Assembly: GCA_951406725.2 (NCBI GenBank) | Contig: OX597815.1 | Location: forward strand, 104,284,001 to 104,348,000 | Direction of reading: 5' to 3' | DNA from: Octopus vulgaris | Taxonomy: Eukaryota | DNA length: 64,000 bases | Shown: positions 3,050 through 44,994 of the stretch, piece by piece | Layout: each line of letters starts with the position of its first letter | Numbering within the stretch: the stretch's first letter is position 1 | Position numbers and translations under genes: made by a program | Notes under the pieces: generated by a model | What the model was told of the DNA's origin: nothing | Seen by the model: the letters and a program-made list of their open reading frames with translations, nothing else | Database searches by the model: none

Positions 3050-3315
3050 TGGTGATCCTGCCAGTGTTGGTGCCATGTAAAAAAAAGTATCCGGTCCACA
3101 CTGTAAAATTACTGGCATTTGGAAGGACATTCAACTGTAAAAACCATGCCAAAACTGATATTGACTGCTGGTTCCATGTAAAAAGCACCCAGTCCACTCT
3201 ACTGGGTGGTTGGCATTAAGAAGGGCATCCAGTCATAAAAGCCATGCCAAAACAGACATTGTAGTCTTCTGCCTAGACAGTTCCACGGAAACCAGACATT
3301 AAATGATGATGATGT
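3050..3315 (+). mobile_element. RTE-LINE-related 3' tail/SINE ending in (GAT)n, with internal tandem duplication
   Basis: ggttggcattaagaagggcatccag...aaccatgcc...ttaaatgatgatgat. Other copies at ~12985-13195(+), 17470-17925(-), 22660-23000(+), 27650-27820(-), 33420-33700(-), 40450-40745(+), 57130-57320(-), 57895-58040(+). Confidence 0.75.
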
Positions 3316-7549: not shown

Positions 7550-9130
7550 AAAATAACTTCAGAAGATAAGAGAAGTCAATGTTATGAAATAATGAAATAT
7601 GAAACCACTTCTCTTTGCTGTAAAATAGATGAGTTCAGCGATTAATTTACAAATGAAAATAGAAATTTTACAAAAGCGGGAAGATTTTGCATTCACCATT
7701 AAAGAAAGTTATAACAAAGCTAGTAATTAAGAGCACCATTATGAAGTAAATTGCAAAATCATTTTGTGTGATTATCCATCAAAATCAGAAAACGAGTCAG
7801 CTATAATAAAACATGACTAAATAACCAACAGGTCCATAATAATGTTCAACAAAAAACTGAAACAACAGTGAAAGCTAGTTATGCTGTGTTATGGAATTTA
7901 GAATTTTTTTAATGCTAAATCCAACTTTCTGAAGAATATACCTGTAGTTATTACATTGTTAAATTTTGACCCCTTCCCCTGGTAAAAAAAAGAAATAATA
8001 ATAATTATAAATTTCAGTGACCAAGCAAACAAACTTTGTTATCACAAAATGATTCTCTCCAATCAGTATCGATGTTGCAGATAAATGCAAAATGACTTAA
8101 AGAATTTCCTGGAATTCAGTTTAGTTCTTGGTGAATCTACAGCAGACAGGGTAACCCACTGTTTATCAGGCTTCTGATGTCAGTTGTGAAAGAAAAAGCA
8201 TTGGCCACAAAAACAATATGTGCCATTGACATTAAAAAATGTGCTTGGTAGAGCCTTAAATATTGATATTCCACTGTGTAGACTCATCAGTGCTGCATCA
8301 GACAGAGCACCTGCAATAATGAAGAAAATGCAGAGTTAATTGCATTAAAGAAAAGAAATGCCTGCTTTCCAGAATTTCTCCATCTACATTCTTCAGTGTG
8401 AACAGCTTGCAGCCAAGTATTTTATATATGAAGATATAGCGCAAACTGATCTTGAAGTTGTTTATTTCTCATACTTAAAAGGAAGACCTGGCATTTCAGA
8501 AATTCTGGGGATTGAAAGCTCTAATGTAAACTCAGTGATATTTCTTTCTGTTGTGATATGGATGGAAAGTGATGAATGGATGCATGATCTGATGTTCCTT
8601 ATTCACATAATAAAACATATACAAACTCTCACCTTGGTACCCCATTGGATGTATAAGATTGTTTCCGATCTTACTCAGCTGATTTTCAGTTTTTGAAATG
8701 TTATCCAAAAAGACATCTTGTCAAGAAACTTCAGACACTTATCCAATTCTTAGTAAAGTAAACACATTCTTTGATATTGAAATAAAAGATCAGAACCCGA
8801 AAAATACTAAGGTTAAATTACAAAGATTTCTTGATAATTTCCTAGACATGTTTTATGTCTTGTTGCAGCTGAAGTCTTGCCTCACTTTTTTTCTTTTGTA
8901 AATCATGTAATCAGTGGTGAATGTCCAATTTTTAAATATCTGATTACAGAATCATAAGACGTGAATCTAAACATGATCCCCAAATTCCAGTTTACAAATG
9001 TGATCTGGGAATAAGTTCTAGATATAAAGTATCTATAATTGAAGGAAATTGTTTACACCCTACCATTTTTAGCATGACATACTGCTGTGAAATATGATGA
9101 AGCCAATTTGTACAGCTTTGACAACCTATC
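7550..9130 (+). pseudogene. Decayed hAT (GTF2IRD2/EPM2AIP1/Buster-like) transposase
   Basis: Fragmentary motifs FSLVLGEST (~8113; cf. SLALDEST), SAASDRAPAIM (~8289; cf. TDGAPAM), ILQCEQLAAK, SMTYCCE (~9071); many stops and frameshifts. Confidence 0.6.
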
Positions 9131-9144
9131 AGCCACAGTATTAA

Positions 9145-10391
9145 CCCTTTCGTTACTATATTTCTGACCAAAATACACCCCCCATGAGTTTCTATTAAAT
9201 TCTAAAATAATCATGAATCTAGACTAGTTTCATTAAACAACTGTAACCTTTTTTACTTATCAACATTTTAATGTGATATTTGGAACATAATTAAAGAAAG
9301 GGTTTTTAATTCAATTGCATAACTTTTGTCTCAAAGTGACTCTAATTACAGGTAAATCCAGGCAAACTGAGCAAAAGGTAAAAATATTTAAATTTTGTTT
9401 AAACATCACCATAGAAAATGAATTATCAGCTAATATTCATTTGGGTATGAAACAAAATTTTGATATAAAAGAATTGTACACATCACTAGATTATCAGTTG
9501 AATTTAATGCACAACAGAACAAGTGTACCATAAAGGTGAAATAAACCGAAATACTGGAATCCACCTAAATCCACTGCAAGTTTGACCAAACTAAAAAAAA
9601 ATATAGGTAAAAAAATAATATACAGCCCTGGTTATGGTATGGAAGTGATAAATTCCAGGCCACATCGTACCCTAGGCCATGCTGACTAACATTATTTTTC
9701 CTGTATAAAAACAAAATCCACAGCAGTTACCAGTATTTGCTTCACAAATTTTCCAAACTTTGATCCCCCATTTTGTGGGCTTTCGTAGCATATACTGTTT
9801 GCTTACATTCTGCGTAACAGTTTGTTTCCACAGTGATCGCTTCAAACAAGCATACTGAAAAAAATTGTTTCACTTCTTAAGAAAGACTATGGATAGACCC
9901 CATCTCCTCAGAAAAATTGCTAATAAAAACATTTTTAAAGTTTTTACTTCATTCCGATGTAAAATTGTCTTCACTGTTGCTATCACCGCTTTCGGTTTCA
10001 GATACAGAAATATCCTATTCATTCTTGTACACCACGTGCTTTTGTACCTCATTCATTCTTTTTCTCGATAACTCCATATTTTCTGTTGAAAAGCTTTTAA
10101 ATTTGGAATCACTGCTTGGTAGCATGAAACTCCTATCCATTTTCAAAGTTGAAAAAAAAAAATTGACGTGGAAAAAATCTCCCAAAATTTACTGAGTTCA
10201 GATATCACATCAAGCAATGTCGGATACAATAACTCAACTATTTACAAAGTGAAATCACATATTTTCACAAATGTACTAATGAGATTTGTGCTTAAATTCG
10301 CATTTAAATAACAATGGGTACTCTTGGCTGGCTATAGCTGGGTTGGTCTTATGAACCAAAAAGTTTTTCAGCTGGGTTAGTATCGAAAGGG
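9145..10391 (-). mobile_element. Internally deleted piggyBac element with intact ends
   Basis: TTAA at 9141-9144 and 10392-10395; TIR ccctttcgttacta / tagtatcgaaaggg (13 of 14 match); - strand remnants KWGIKVWKICEANTG and an acidic Ser-rich N-terminus. Confidence 0.88.
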
Positions 10392-23849: not shown

Positions 23850-24676
23850 TGTTGGGGCAGAGATGTTCATCCAAAACTGAAACCATGCCAGGAAAGCCCA
23901 CGAAATGGGGGATCAAAGTTTGGAAAATTTGTGAAGCAAATACTGGGTACAGCTGTGGATTTAGTTTTTATACAGGGAAAATAATGTTAGTCAGCATGGC
24001 CTAGGGAACGATGTGGTCTGGAATTTATCACTTCCATACCATAACCAGGGCTGTATATTATTTTTTGACCGATTTCTTTAGTTTGGTCAAACTTGTAGTG
24101 GATTTAGGTGGATTCCAGTATTTCAGTTTATTTCACCTTTATGGTACACCTGTTCTGTTGTGCATTATATTCAACTGATAATCTAGTGATGTGCACAGTT
24201 CTTTTATATCAAAATGAATACCCAATTAAATATTAGCTGATGATTCATTTTCTATGGTGATGTTTAAACAAAACTTAAATACTTTTTACCTTTTGCTTAA
24301 TTTACCTGGATTTACCTGTAATTAGAGTCACTTTGAGAAAAAAGCTATTGACAAATATTACATTAATATGTTAAGTAAAAAACTTACAGTTGCTTAATGA
24401 AACTAGTCTAGATTCATGATTATTTTAGAATTTAATTGAAACTCATGAGGGGTGTATTTTGGTCAGAAATATAGTAACGAAAAGGTTAAACAGTGTCGGA
24501 TACTATAACTCAACTATTTACTAAGGAAATCATATGTTTTCATGAATGTACTAACGAGATTTGTGTTCAAATTCACATTTAAATAACAATGGGTACTCTC
24601 GGCCAGCTACAGCTGCGTTGGTCTTATGAAGCAAAAGATTTTTGGGCCAGCTAAGGCCGGGTTGGTATTAAAAGGG
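23850..24676 (+). mobile_element. Second, rearranged copy of the piggyBac element
   Basis: MPGKPTKWGIKVWKICEANTGYSCGFSFYTGK...LFFDRF; terminus plus TTAA at 24486-24489, then the other terminus plus TTAA at 24677-24680. Confidence 0.85.
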
Positions 24677-24948
24677 TTAAACTGCTTCAGATATTTAATT
24701 GATTATGTGAATAAGTTCCATTCTTGACTTACATTCTAGAAAGTTGAAAATATGCTAATGAAATAGAATTAATTTTATTATGGATTGTGTAAATGTTTAC
24801 ATATAGGTGCTAGGTGCATAAAAGCACACAGATTGCAGCAGACGAGAATTGTCTGTCATGGGTGCTGGAATTCCTATATCATGTGATTTTATTCTATTGG
24901 AAATCAACTGTGGTAGGCATTCAGTCACTACTTACACACACACACACT

Positions 24949-32503: not shown

Positions 32504-32656
32504 TTAATGCTGATCGCCAGTCACATAATTCGTTGATTTAAAAGCTACTGTCTTAAGCAGTAACCTCTGCATGGTTACTATAAAAAATAGCAGCCAAATC
32601 TCTCAAGTAACATTTAACTATCTTCAAAAAAATGAAAGGACATATCCTATAATTTA

Positions 32657-33096
32657 CAGTTCTATATTTAAGAGATGAGGAATTATGTACATTATTTACA
32701 TTTGATGGATATTGTCCTCATCTTGTTTGTTGTTAACGCAACATTTCGGCTGATACACCCCTCCAGCCTTCATCAAGTATCTTGGGGAAATTTTGAACCT
32801 GGGTTCTCGTTCCTAAGGTATTTTTCGATGTTATTATTATTATACAGGTCACTGCCTGGAATCGAACTCGGAATCTTGATGTTAGTAGCCTGTGCTCTTA
32901 ACCACTATGCCATATTCCCATGGGCAGTTATGGAGTGAAGTTTTAGGGCTTATAAGTCTAATAAGGAAGGATAGGTAAATATTAGATTTGTAAGCCAAAA
33001 AAATGCACTCCATAATTGTCCACAGGTATATGGCGTAGTGCTTAAGAGTGCGGGCTACTAACCCCAAGATTCCGAATTCAATTCCAGGCAGTGGCA

Positions 33097-33139
<43 letters not shown>

Positions 33140-33289
33140 TAATAATATTAATAACATCAATAAAAAATACCTTAGGAATGAGAACCCAAGTTCGAAATTT
33201 CCCCAAGACACCTGATGAAGACTGGAGGGTATATCAGCCAAAACGTGTTAACAAACAAGATGAGGACAAATATCTGTCAAATGTAAATA
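32657..33289. mobile_element. Foldback element; each arm has a tRNA-like head, (AAT)n and a hammerhead-like motif
   Basis: Arms 32657-32963 and 32980-33289 are inverted copies around a 16-nt spacer; left end is TA|CAGT, right end truncated. Confidence 0.8.
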
Positions 33290-33699
33290 TATGCTATATT
33301 GATATACTATACTTGAAAACAAAGCATGATGGTCATGGTTGGAACCCTTTTGATCTTAGGTCTGCTAAATAAGGGTTGGATTGAGTTTAAATAACTACAA
33401 AAGTACAAGATACCTGACGACGACGATGATGATGATGATCATCATCGTCGTTTAACGTCTGCTTTCCATGCCGGCATGGATTGGATGGTTTGACTGAGGG
33501 CTGGCGAGCCAGAAGGCTGCACCAGGCTCCAATCTGATCTGGCAGGATTTCTATAGCTAGATGCCCTTCCTAATGCCAACCACTCCGACAGTGTAGTGGG
33601 TCCTTTTTACATGCCACCGGCACGGGAGCCAGTCAGGCCGCACTGGCAATGATCACACTCAAATGGTGCTTTTAACATGCCACTGGCATGGGTGCTAAT

Positions 33700-34220
33700 C
33701 AAGCAGTACTGTCATCGACCATGACAGTGGTTTCACTTGCCTCAACAGGTCTTTGCAAGCACAGTTTATTGCCCAATGATAGGCCATGGTTATGGTCTCA
33801 CTTGGCTTGCCAGGTCTTCTCAAGTACAGTATATCTCCAAAGGTCATTATCATTGCCTCAGCGCGGCCCAATGTTTGAAGGTCATGCTTCACCACCTCAT
33901 CCCAGGTCTTCTTGGGTCTACCTCTTCCACAGGTTCCCTCTATTGCTAGGATGAAACACTTTTTCACACAGCTGTCCTCATCCATTCACAACACATGACC
34001 ATACCAGTGCAGTTGTCTCTCTTGCATGCCACATCTGATGCTTTTTAAGTCCAACTAGTCCCTCAGGGCACTTACACTCTGTCGTGTATGCACACTGACA
34101 TTACACATCCAGCTGAGCATACTGGCTTCATTCCTTGCAAGTTTATGCATGTCCTCAGCAGTCATGGCCTGTGTTTCACTGCCATGTATCATGGCTGTTT
34201 GCACACATGCATCATAGTGT
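33700..34220 (-). mobile_element. RTE-type LINE 3' portion
   Basis: EGTCGRGRPKKTWDEVVKHDL, a typical RTE C-terminal motif, contiguous with the (GAT)n tail at ~33420. Confidence 0.75.
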
Positions 34221-42699: not shown

Positions 42700-43466
42700 G
42701 TATAATTCTTGTCTTTTCTATTCCGTTATAATTACATTTTAGAACAAATGTATATCCTATATCTTTGACAAGATCAATAACAAATGAATTAAGCTATTTT
42801 ACTTTTATAACTGATATTACAGAGTTATCGAAGCTTGAGCTGGCTGCTATTTTGTCTTAAAGAAGGAGGACAAGCTTCCCTGAACTTCTCTGGGAGGAAA
42901 TTCCAGTGGGTTACATTTCTGGGAAGAATGATCATGAAAGTGTTAAGTGCACAGCACTTACTTTTTTATTATTATTGTTTTATGTGTATGACAGCTACTT
43001 TGCAGTGGAGGGCCAGTGGATGATCAAGAATATTTCTAGGCATGAAATGTACTGAGTTTGAATTTTCACAATCCCGTATAGATGAAGTCAACATAGGAGA
43101 TCGTAAGGCCTGGCACTTTGAAGATTTTCAACGTTTTCATATCTCTTTTTCAAATCAGCACATTTATTAGGTTACATGTAGATGCCTGTATGAAGAACTT
43201 TGAGGTGTAAGGTGTGGTGGTATCTGCAGAGAAGTGTATGTAGTTAAAATTAACAGCAAGGAAGTGTGTAGGAGTATTTATAACATTTGAGAAGACCTTA
43301 TCAGCACTTGCTGCAATGTGGTTGTCTTGCAGAAAAGTTTTGTTTTTTACTTAATTAAATTGATGTGTAATCTTAGGTGAGTTTTCATCTCAAGCACAAC
43401 TAAAGGACTTTTTGATGTAAAAGACATTGTTGATGGAGAATTGGTGTGTGACCTAAGTGAAGTTTT

Positions 43467-44250
43467 GGATCTTTTCCCTTTGAACGGCAGATCGAGAAAT
43501 TAATTTTTTGCAACTAAACACTTTCAAACTTTGGACACTGGTAGAATATGTCATATAACATCTTTTACTCTTAGTGTTGTTGAGAAAAGTTTATATTTTC
43601 AAAGTTATTTTGTGTTAAAGTAGTCTTATTTCGGTAATTTCAACCAATTAATGATATGTATTCAGCTGAATAAAATTACTGCTGTCGTTTGTCAACAACT
43701 ACTATCAGCGGTGTATATTTCGTTTGTCACTGTTATTTATGACATCGTTCATGTGTTTGTACTGGTTTTAATTTTAGGGTTAGAGTTATGGAAAAAAGTG
43801 AAAAATTAAGAAATTGAAAGGGGTGGGGGCCAAAGTCTTTCTGAAAATAGTAGCTGAAAAACAGGAAAAAAAAACTAAAAGCAGTAGAAATGCACAAACG
43901 ATTATGGTGGTGTCGTGAAGTAAGCGTGCTTCAGATACACTCGTTTACTCATACGGCCGTAACTGAGATGAAATATGTCATAAATAACAGTGACAAACGA
44001 AATATTCACCGCTGGAAGTTGTTGTTGACAAACAACAGCAGTAATTTTATTCAGCTCAATAGACGTCATTGATTGGTTGAAATTACCGAAATATGACAAC
44101 TTTAACATGAAATAACTTTGAAAATACAAACTTTTCTCAACAACACTAACAGTTAAAGATGTTTTATATGACACATTCTACCAGTGTCCGAAGTTTGAAA
44201 GTATTACAAAAAATTAATTTCTAAATCTGTCGTTTAAAGGGTAAAGATCC
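43467..44250. mobile_element. MITE with ~290-bp terminal inverted repeats
   Basis: GGATC...GATCC ends; flanks gaagtttt / aaagtttt (7 of 8 match, probable 8-bp TSD); Mutator- or Merlin-like by inference. Confidence 0.85.
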
Positions 44251-44994
44251 AAAGTTTTTACTTTATCTGCTTAAGCTGTATGAACGGTTACTGAGAGGGG
44301 AGATAATCTTCAGGTGATAAGATTTCCATCAACTTTTAAGATATTGGAAGTGAAAGAACAGGAAAATAGTTAGTAAGATTCCTCTTATTGAAAATAGGAA
44401 GCACTTATTCACATTTTTAGTACATTGAGATAGATCCCTGTAGAGAAGAAAATTGAAGAATTTGGTAGTTGTGATCTAATATTCAATATACTGTTTTAGG
44501 GTAATAGAAGAGACACTCAAGACTGCTTACATTGTTGGATTGGTGTGGCTAGAGTAGTACTCACTTCATGACTGGCTACATGGTGGTGAAACAGGTGGAA
44601 TGTAGTAACAGTTTTTATCCTGTTCAGTGGAAGTGGTTACATATGGAACTATTTTTGTTGCGGAGTGATTGATTGGAAGATTCACGGAGGTGGTTTTAAA
44701 GTCTAACAGTGAAATTATTTTGCATTTTTGGAAATCGTTAAAGTTTGCATCTATTTTGATTGAGGATCACTGACCTTTTCTTAATGCAATATGAAATGGA
44801 AATTCAGATATTTAGCCAGTTTATTTCCCCAAGGAATGTGAGTTACCATCATTCCAAAGAATCTGTTTGACTAAAGATAAAAGGTAAGTTTCTATTCTAA
44901 GTTACCTTCAGTAGACATATATCCATTGTATCATTGCTTTTTATTCCAAAGAATGTATTTCTATAATAGATTTGTTTATAAATGTTATTTTCAG

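What the first reader, a model, noticed from the sequence alone, without database searches (positions are those of the whole stretch)
32657..33289. Foldback element with back-to-back tRNA-promoter / (AAT)n / hammerhead cassettes
Seen: two ~310-bp inverted arms around a 16-nt spacer (32964-32979). Read outward from the centre, each arm has an A box (TGGCATAGTGGT on - at 32901-32912; TGGCGTAGTG at 33031), a B box (GAGTTCGATTCC on - at 32858-32869), an (AAT)n tract and a hammerhead-like motif. Merging the arms gives GACAC-CTGATGA-A-GGCTG-loop-CAGCC-GAAAC-GTT-GTGTT: stem I GACAC/GUGUU, stem II GGCUG/CAGCC, palindromic AACGUU in place of stem III. No T4 Pol III terminator lies between promoter and motif on either arm. 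Established: minimal type-I hammerheads with palindromic stem III occur in Penelope-like elements and retrozymes and cleave as dimers. Inference: a Pol III-driven, ribozyme-terminated retroelement packaged as a foldback whose left end (TA|CAGT) looks Tc1/MITE-like. Divergent transcripts could supply both halves of a dimeric ribozyme. Both copies here carry core substitutions (TTGATGA/GAAAT on the left; AAAAC and a 3-nt loss on the right), so they are probably inactive.
Basis: partly seen in the sequence, partly recalled or inferred. Interest (0 to 1): 0.8.

Follow-up and report, generated by a model that had tools for sequence, protein, structure and literature searches.

The report
Octopus tRNA-headed Penelope-type parasite element
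This is one decayed, head-to-head insertion of a very abundant octopus repeat that joins a tRNA-like promoter head to a hammerhead-ribozyme end, and its insertion marks suggest it is likely copied by Penelope-like retrotransposons rather than by the LINEs that normally move such short elements.

Summary
In detail: two 85%-identical inverted arms, each with A/B boxes, (AAT)n and a hammerhead-like motif. Reads from four public runs show a very high-copy octopus family whose majority letters restore an intact minimal type I hammerhead and B box.

The insertion carries Penelope-like element (PLE) marks: a 33-nt tail on one arm only, head-to-head joins with variable break points at other loci, depth falling from 3' to 5', and a degenerate 11-12-bp target duplication. 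The Tc1/MITE reading fails. The central 16 nt is shared with other copies and is probably the 5' end of the longer arm.

Best reading: a non-autonomous, SINE-like element with a tRNA-derived head, mobilised by PLE enzymes. Not shown: Pol III transcription, ribozyme cleavage (no RNA-end pile-up), the partner PLE (not found), and the idea that the two arms supply one ribozyme dimer. Ten literature searches found no tRNA-headed PLE-dependent SINE, but the family may be one of the octopus SINEs named in 1994, which I could not read. New variant of a known kind.

The parts
32643..32654 (+). Left copy of a degenerate target-site duplication (12 nt)
   Evidence: 10 of 12 match to 33290-33300; equal or better score in 20 of 2000 and 11 of 2000 random draws
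32655..32687 (-). 33-nt one-sided 'tail' at the 3' end of the left arm; pairs back on the body through a 9-bp stem
   Evidence: Absent from right arm; family ends with unlike flanks at 32655/32657 and at ~32688/33289; 9-nt inverted repeat 32673-32681/32715-32723; fold z only -1.8
32688..32739 (-). 3' body downstream of the predicted ribozyme cut (cut between 32740 and 32739)
   Evidence: Sequence; high depth; cut position inferred from hammerhead numbering
32735..32781 (-). Minimal type I hammerhead, left copy, with changes at core positions 3 and 15.2 and in stem I
   Evidence: Majority letters at 32776, 32779, 32743, 32738 restore core and stems; stem II forms in the fold
32782..32830 (-). 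Linker between (AAT)n and hammerhead
   Evidence: High depth in all four runs
32831..32843 (-). Short (AAT)n tract, left arm
   Evidence: Sequence; length variation seen as loose ends
32847..32919 (-). tRNA-like head, left arm; A box 32912-32901, B box 32869-32858
   Evidence: Top hit of a tRNA profile, envelope 32919-32847, E 3e-6 (partly circular); boxes
32920..32963 (-). Upstream leader, left arm, 5'-truncated at 32963; ends in a short hairpin with the head
   Evidence: Lower depth than head; majority letters at 32916 and 32920
32964..32979 (+). Central 16 nt, probably the 5' end of the longer (right) arm rather than a private spacer
   Evidence: Depth 116k (X1) and 83k (X5) at 32976 vs 52-57 for locus-specific contigs; a contig of another locus runs 32962-33079 with 15 unaligned letters to the left
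32980..33023 (+). Upstream leader, right arm
   Evidence: Inverse of 32920-32963
33024..33097 (+). tRNA-like head, right arm; A box from 33031, decayed B box 33074-33085
   Evidence: Second hit of the tRNA profile, E 9e-4; majority letters at 33041, 33076, 33080 restore the boxes
33099..33154 (+). Expanded (AAT)n tract, right arm
   Evidence: Sequence; 45-nt gap in arm alignment
33207..33249 (+). Minimal type I hammerhead, right copy, with a change at core position 12, a stem II change and losses around the cut site
   Evidence: Core starts at 33212; majority letters at 33221, 33240 and insertions behind 33245-33249
33250..33289 (+). 3' body of the right arm, ending without the tail
   Evidence: Loose ends at 33289 in all four runs
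33290..33300 (+). Right copy of the degenerate target-site duplication (11 nt)

Best explanation
This is a decayed head-to-head insertion of a very high-copy octopus repeat made of a tRNA-like head, an (AAT)n tract and a hammerhead-bearing 3' end, likely transcribed by RNA polymerase III from its A/B boxes and likely copied into the genome in trans by a Penelope-like element's reverse transcriptase/endonuclease. Shown: the anatomy, the intact majority motifs, the one-sided 33-nt tail, variable head-to-head joins, 3'-to-5' loss of depth and a probable 11-12-bp duplication. Inferred steps: (1) a PLE end landed in the (AAT)n behind a tRNA-derived sequence; (2) Pol III reads from the head through the ribozyme and tail to a T-run in the flank; (3) the PLE protein binds the 3' module, nicks AT-rich DNA and starts reverse transcription at two internal sites that define the tailed and tail-less ends; (4) the two cDNAs, one or both 5'-truncated, join head to head. 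The hammerhead is a retained part of the PLE end that would cleave only as a dimer or with protein help and may not be needed for insertion.
For: Family-wide join of head and 3' module: both arms have it, RNA depth does not drop across the left (AAT)n (1533 at 32809, 1578 at 32844 in X23), and a contig from another locus spans 32780-32907. Majority letters give the min-HHR features listed in PMC4209133: bulged base after position 9, G10.1-C11.1, palindromic 15.2-16.2. One-sided 30-40-bp tail and an adjacent inverted 5'-truncated copy are PLE hallmarks (PMC8557442; PMC3846280; PMC11167929). Tailed vs tail-less loose ends, my sums of the listed rows: 1627 vs 1658 (X23), 1422 vs 952 (X24), 595 vs 302 (X1), 378 vs 307 (X5); only 24 of 1899 rows were shown. 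Twelve distinct head-to-head joins among the rows shown have arm lengths from 24 to 238 nt; 8 of 12 have one arm ending at the head's 5' end (binomial 1.5e-4, window chosen after seeing the data). Folded RNA depth falls 4329, 3575, 2855, 2097, 1914, 403 from 3' body to leader (X23). Duplication chance 0.5-1%. Head motifs hit tRNA genes in 88 of 89 and 127 of 133 loci.
Against: No autonomous PLE sharing the 3' module was found: peptide searches returned only octopus gene models that contain the repeat, short unnamed ORFs and two repetitive proteins, none with an RT annotation, and no genome was held. No pile-up of RNA ends anywhere (table 6). This copy carries 44 nt of leader in both arms plus 16 more, too far upstream for a Pol III start from these boxes; the leader has about a fifth of the head's depth in RNA (403/1914; 243/1446) and about 2% in X1 contigs. 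ARAGORN and Rfam do not call the heads, and a profile built only from tRNA 5' halves did not rank either head in its top 8; the 3'-half profile ranked them 1st and 4th at E 1.2 and 8.5. DNA contig depth is not monotonic along the unit and is distorted by window-specific mismatches. Only 15 of 586 joint rows and 12 of 410 linker rows were visible.
Confidence: 0.62

Rival explanations
1. A non-autonomous PLE derivative (solo pseudo-LTR) in which the tRNA-like head is a captured passenger; templates come from Pol II or read-through transcripts, not from the A/B boxes.
For: Leader and central 16 nt are copied in a subfamily; RNA reads are unstranded and 79-80% run on into unlike sequence, as expected for copies embedded in host transcripts; solo pLTRs capture unrelated DNA in rotifers (PMC3846280); pLTR 5' palindromes are known and the head hairpin could itself cause break points there.
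Against: A and B boxes are intact in the majority while the cloverleaf is not; 8 of 12 shown joins end at the head's 5' end and depth drops about five-fold in RNA just upstream of it.
Confidence: 0.25
2. An ordinary LINE-mobilised tRNA SINE; two copies inserted back to back or inverted by twin priming, and the hammerhead-like motif is incidental.
For: Octopus genomes are SINE-rich; window copies of the motif are not above chance on their own; arms differ by 15%.
Against: The simple repeat is internal, not terminal; two fixed 3' ends 33 nt apart; one duplication flanks the whole pair; majority letters restore every min-HHR feature; twin priming gives complementary parts of one copy, not two copies of the same 3' end (own knowledge).
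Confidence: 0.06
3. A Tc1-type MITE or foldback DNA transposon whose long inverted arms move as one unit with a TA duplication.
For: Long inverted arms; left end reads TA-CAGT; central 16 nt shared with other copies.
Against: Right end lacks the matching terminus; no TA duplication; break points vary; depth is far from flat across the element.
Confidence: 0.03
4. The pair is a functional unit selected so that divergent Pol III transcripts from the two arms form a dimeric ribozyme.
For: Geometry allows divergent transcription; min-HHRs cleave weakly as dimers and not as monomers.
Against: Many joins leave one arm without head or without ribozyme; no RNA-end pile-up; ribozyme mutants did not affect insertion by the anole PLE in vitro; opposite-strand min-HHR pairs 100-700 bp apart were already noted in Schistosoma, in a passage relating most motifs to truncated PLEs.
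Confidence: 0.04

Closest known systems
Insertion units of endonuclease-positive Penelope-like elements (Penelope/Poseidon, Neptune, Nematis) with min-HHR in the pseudo-LTR (PMC4209133, PMC8557442, PMC3846280, PMC11167929)
   Same: Minimal type I hammerhead, one-sided 30-40-bp tail, adjacent inverted 5'-truncated copy, AT-rich target, ~10-bp duplication
   Different: No RT-endonuclease ORF; a tRNA-like head with A/B boxes is fixed upstream; partner element not identified
Schistosoma SINE-like hammerhead retroposons (Sm/Sj alpha; seen through the review PMC6765202)
   Same: Pol III-type promoter followed by a hammerhead, high copy number
   Different: Those are often tandem and carry a hammerhead shown to cleave; this family shows head-to-head pairs, a minimal hammerhead and a PLE tail. 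Whether the schistosome elements have PLE marks was not checked
Animal non-LTR retrozymes (PMC7229834; bioRxiv 10.64898/2026.07.22.740005)
   Same: Non-coding, ~300 bp, type I hammerhead, proposed PLE dependence
   Different: Defined by head-to-tail tandem units and circular RNA; no tandem here; the preprint has no mention of tRNA or promoter
tRNA-derived SINEs of Octopus, OK/OR1/OR2 (Ohshima and Okada 1994; paper not held)
   Same: Same host genus; tRNA-derived; from recall they derive from tRNA-Arg and OR2 is about 270 nt, close to the 265 nt from head to tail end here; 8 of the 10 best-scoring prokaryotic or viral tRNAs were Arg
   Different: OR2 is listed as a CORE SINE; no sequence was available, so identity is untested; no hammerhead or PLE link appears in the passages read
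Helenus and Ajax, small-RNA-derived non-autonomous LTR retrotransposons (PMC10886601; title, abstract start and two passages seen)
   Same: Small-RNA-like module inside a non-autonomous element that is not LINE-dependent
   Different: LTR machinery there; PLE marks here

Membership tests
PLE-mobilised element | Inverted 5'-truncated copy adjacent to the 5' end | tested here: met
   This locus and 12 joins with variable break points among the rows shown
PLE-mobilised element | 30-40-bp tail at one end only | tested here: met
   33 nt at 32655-32687; two classes of family end
PLE-mobilised element | Minimal type I hammerhead near the 3' end | tested here: met
   Met for the family majority; both window copies carry core changes; no Rfam hit
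PLE-mobilised element | Target duplication around the whole unit | tested here: inconclusive
   10 of 12 match, chance 0.5-1%; one locus only
PLE-mobilised element | 3' end shared with an autonomous PLE of the same genome | tested here: inconclusive
   Peptide searches found no RT-bearing protein; weak test; no genome held
Autonomous PLE | RT plus GIY-YIG ORF | tested here: not met
   No such ORF in the element
tRNA-derived SINE | tRNA-related head with A and B boxes | tested here: met
   one independent half-profile test failed
tRNA-derived SINE | Short, non-coding, dispersed, high copy | tested here: met
   Depth of millions vs 52-57 for locus-specific contigs; unlike flanks
tRNA-derived SINE | Transcribed by RNA polymerase III | not testable with these tools
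   RNA runs unstranded, no end pile-up
tRNA-derived SINE | LINE-type 3' end (A tail or terminal simple repeat) | tested here: not met
   (AAT)n is internal; ends are two fixed positions
Non-LTR retrozyme | Head-to-tail tandem units | tested here: not met
   None at this locus; no unit-length head-to-tail joint among the 15 of 586 rows shown
Non-LTR retrozyme | Self-cleavage and circular RNA | not testable with these tools
   Needs assay or dedicated library
Tc1/mariner MITE | TA duplication and matching termini | tested here: not met
Octopus OK/OR1/OR2 SINEs | Sequence identity with the published consensus | not testable with these tools
   Paper not held; no repeat library available

The most novel reading that the evidence does not exclude
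One of the dominant SINE families of octopuses is a Penelope-dependent SINE: a Pol III-driven tRNA head grafted onto a PLE ribozyme end, a third route for small-RNA-derived mobile elements beside LINE- and LTR-dependent ones. Because each PLE-type insertion tends to be a self-contained hairpin, this family would be a major source of the long double-stranded RNA behind octopus hyper-editing.
Probability: 0.4. Interest if true: 0.75.

Novelty: new variant of a known kind. Interest (0 to 1): 0.55.

Why it matters
SINEs are normally paired with LINEs by their 3' tails. A very abundant tRNA-headed family with PLE marks would extend SINE parasitism to Penelope-like enzymes and could explain part of the 893 'unclassified SINE' families among recently active O. 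vulgaris repeats. Tens of thousands of short insertions would also be a natural data set for open PLE questions: how tails and head-to-head inversions arise and whether the hammerhead is used. Octopus has an exceptionally high share of loci able to form long dsRNA and very strong hyper-editing, and its repeats were left out of that analysis (PMC5625713); ready-made hairpins from this family are a testable source. Repeat-derived peptide also appears in four octopus gene models, so the family affects annotation.

Tried and rejected
No whole genome was held. Exact 20-mer scans of viral, prokaryotic and metagenome contigs: 0 matches each. Peptide scan of metagenome contigs: 1 weak locus of 56 candidates, not used. 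No further copy in the window. Rfam: no tRNA or hammerhead at gathering or E up to 10. ARAGORN: none. Phage BLAST with the heads: 6 and 2 records at chance level, 2 of them on tRNA-Gln. Single-strand folds of hammerheads and heads were not better than shuffles (z -0.5 to +2.1), as expected for decayed copies. The open frame across the 3' module found no PLE protein; the shark AHNAK and one repetitive ENA hit were set aside as compositional. Parent tRNA not settled: Arg leads among prokaryotic and viral tRNAs but Met scored highest, and no eukaryotic set was available. Joins near the predicted cut (4 of 12, p 0.025; one with known linker letters ends within 1 nt of it) were not accepted as evidence of cleavage: window-specific mismatches and a local near-palindrome can place breaks there. 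Earlier-findings look-ups by sequence, place and two word sets returned nothing. Lunse et al. 2017 and Ohshima and Okada 1994 were not held; supplements of the bioRxiv preprint were not seen and could list cephalopod elements.

Full report
Observation. The element spans 32655-33289. Two inverted arms surround 32964-32979 and are identical at 224 of 264 aligned positions, with 29 of 40 differences being transitions. Read outward, each arm has a leader, a tRNA-like head with A and B boxes, an (AAT)n tract, a linker, a hammerhead-like motif and a 3' body. Neither unit contains T4. The arms are unequal in content: the left has 33 extra bases at its outer end, the right has about 45 more bases of AAT. 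No other copy lies in the window.

Host and setting. An open frame across the 3' module matches gene models of Octopus sinensis and O. bimaculoides, so the host is very likely an octopus. The element lies between exon-like ORFs of a plus-strand gene, one of which resembles HAT-repeat proteins; the intronic position is inferred and the name ZFC3H1 is my recall.

The family. With no genome held I laid two DNA runs (X1, X5; two different organisms) and two raw RNA runs (X23, X24; one study) on 32550-33400. They gave 46,900, 36,720, 10,252 and 8,414 laid records. Summed depth over both arms is 2-7 million in X1 against 52-57 for locus-specific contigs; the tool warns that depth is no copy number, so I take only the order of magnitude, tens of thousands of arms. 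Flanks are unlike between copies (agreement 0.40-0.54). One X5 contig spans the right junction (33257-33399), suggesting the insertion predates the split of the two organisms.

Hammerhead. The window copies alone prove nothing: a descriptor loose enough to catch them has 11 hits in the window and Rfam has none. The read majority restores the core at every changed position listed: 32776, 32779, 32738, 33221 and 33240, and 32743 in 74% and 70% of DNA depth but only about half of RNA reads. The result has a 5-bp stem I, a bulged A after position 9, a 5-bp stem II opening with G10.1-C11.1, and a palindrome across 15.2-16.2 with no stem III. These are the features given for PLE min-HHRs in PMC4209133 (first half of the text read). 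Cleavage is not shown: no place had a pile-up of RNA ends, though fragmented unstranded libraries are a weak test, and the anole PLE study also found no reads ending at its cut site.

PLE marks. Copies end at two places 33 nt apart: 32655/32657 and the equivalent of 32688/33289. My sums of the listed loose ends give tailed vs tail-less counts of 1627 vs 1658, 1422 vs 952, 595 vs 302 and 378 vs 307, from 24 of 1899 rows shown. A 30-40-bp tail on one end and an adjacent inverted 5'-truncated copy are described as typical of PLE insertions (PMC8557442, passages; PMC3846280, passages), and the tail corresponds to two internal start sites of reverse transcription in vitro (PMC11167929, first half read). 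Among the rows shown (15 of 586 joints, 12 of 410 linkers) I found 12 distinct head-to-head joins, with arm lengths from 24 to 238 nt; the other rows were arm switches or small indels and were left out. RNA depth folded over both arms falls from 4329 to 403 (X23) and 3417 to 243 (X24) from 3' body to leader, as 5' truncation predicts; DNA contig depth is not monotonic. A 12/11-nt duplication flanks the whole pair, 10 of 12 matching, reached in 20 of 2000 and 11 of 2000 random draws. Together these exclude a TA-duplicating MITE.

Head. Patterns taken from the head's 5' and 3' halves hit ARAGORN-called tRNA genes in 88 of 89 and 127 of 133 loci. A profile of the first set ranks the two heads first and second in the window with envelopes 32919-32847 and 33024-33097; this is partly circular. 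Of the two independent half-profile tests, one ranked the heads 1st and 4th at weak E-values and the other missed them. Majority letters restore the right A and B boxes. Eight of the ten best-scoring tRNAs were Arg, the top one Met, so the parent is unsettled. The head-to-module join is family-wide: depth does not fall across the left (AAT)n and a contig from another locus spans it. This rules out the one-off fusion that an earlier scan report (e1-7811937) found in another genome.

Pol III or passenger. Eight of 12 joins have one arm ending at the head's 5' end (p 1.5e-4, window chosen afterwards), and depth drops just upstream, which fits templates starting at the head. Against this, the present copy has 44 nt of leader in both arms and a central 16 nt that other copies share (depth 116k and 83k at 32976). 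One contig from another locus links that segment to the right leader and has unaligned letters to its left, so it is probably the 5' end of a longer variant. Such templates must start upstream of any Pol III start from these boxes. The leader has a TATA-like stretch 32-38 nt before the head, so leader-bearing copies could be source genes (inference only).

Mechanism. Most likely a PLE end inserted into the (AAT)n behind a tRNA-derived sequence (PLEs favour microsatellites and the anole enzyme cuts at ATT), giving a short unit with its own promoter and the PLE's binding and priming signals. PLE protein then copied it in trans, leaving tailed and tail-less arms head to head. PLE dependence I put near 0.87; Pol III drive given that, near 0.7. 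The partner element was not found, which is the main gap.

Novelty. Ten searches of the held library found no tRNA-headed, PLE-dependent SINE and no hammerhead in an octopus SINE. Close precedents exist: Pol III plus hammerhead elements in Schistosoma (review passages), retrozymes as PLE derivatives (passages; preprint part 1 of 5 and passages), non-autonomous Chlamys and butterfly Penelope elements, and small-RNA-bearing non-autonomous LTR elements. Octopus SINEs were named in 1994; that paper was not held, later papers list OR2 as a CORE SINE, and repeat libraries could not be searched, so the sequence itself may be catalogued. Recent octopus repeat surveys (passages; one supplement searched) list many unclassified SINEs; the O. 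vulgaris paper and its supplement have no mention of ribozymes. Unchecked notes from this scan describe tRNA-bearing PLE-type elements without a ribozyme in other animals; these are leads, not support.

Verdict. Real, a decayed copy of a major repeat family, best read as a tRNA-headed non-autonomous element moved by Penelope-like enzymes. New variant of a known kind; interest 0.55.

Noticed in passing
window 43464-44253: A second, unrelated foldback: ~290-bp arms 88% identical around a 215-nt centre; no tRNA boxes found there by my pattern; possibly a MITE or another PLE-type pair.
   Followed up: partly
window 33432-33940 and copies near 3070, 13022, 17471, 22819, 27630, 40446, 57130, 57894: A different abundant repeat family with 70-80% identical copies in both orientations, one starting about 140 nt right of the element.
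   Followed up: no
window 32550-33400, RNA runs X23 and X24: A-to-G differences at 26 and 30 places in RNA vs 12 and 12 in DNA runs, while T-to-C stays at 10-13. Could be A-to-I editing of hairpins, but C-to-T and G-to-A also rise and no matched DNA exists.
   Followed up: no
window 32926, RNA runs: 365 and 294 reads continue from the head into a short perfect inverted copy of the head and then other sequence (agreement 0.84-0.87); probably one or a few highly expressed loci.
   Followed up: partly
window 33178-33372 (+): One reading frame is open across linker, hammerhead and 3' body; the same peptide starts or lies in four octopus gene models (P0002, P0004, P0023, P0026), either exonised repeat or annotation error.
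   Followed up: partly
window 9127-9791 and 23885-24681: A ~670-bp repeat pair 87% identical in opposite orientation, 14 kb apart.
   Followed up: no
window 1909-36844 (+): Exon-like ORFs of a large gene with a proline-rich stretch and HAT/TPR-like repeats; ZFC3H1-like by recall.
   Followed up: partly
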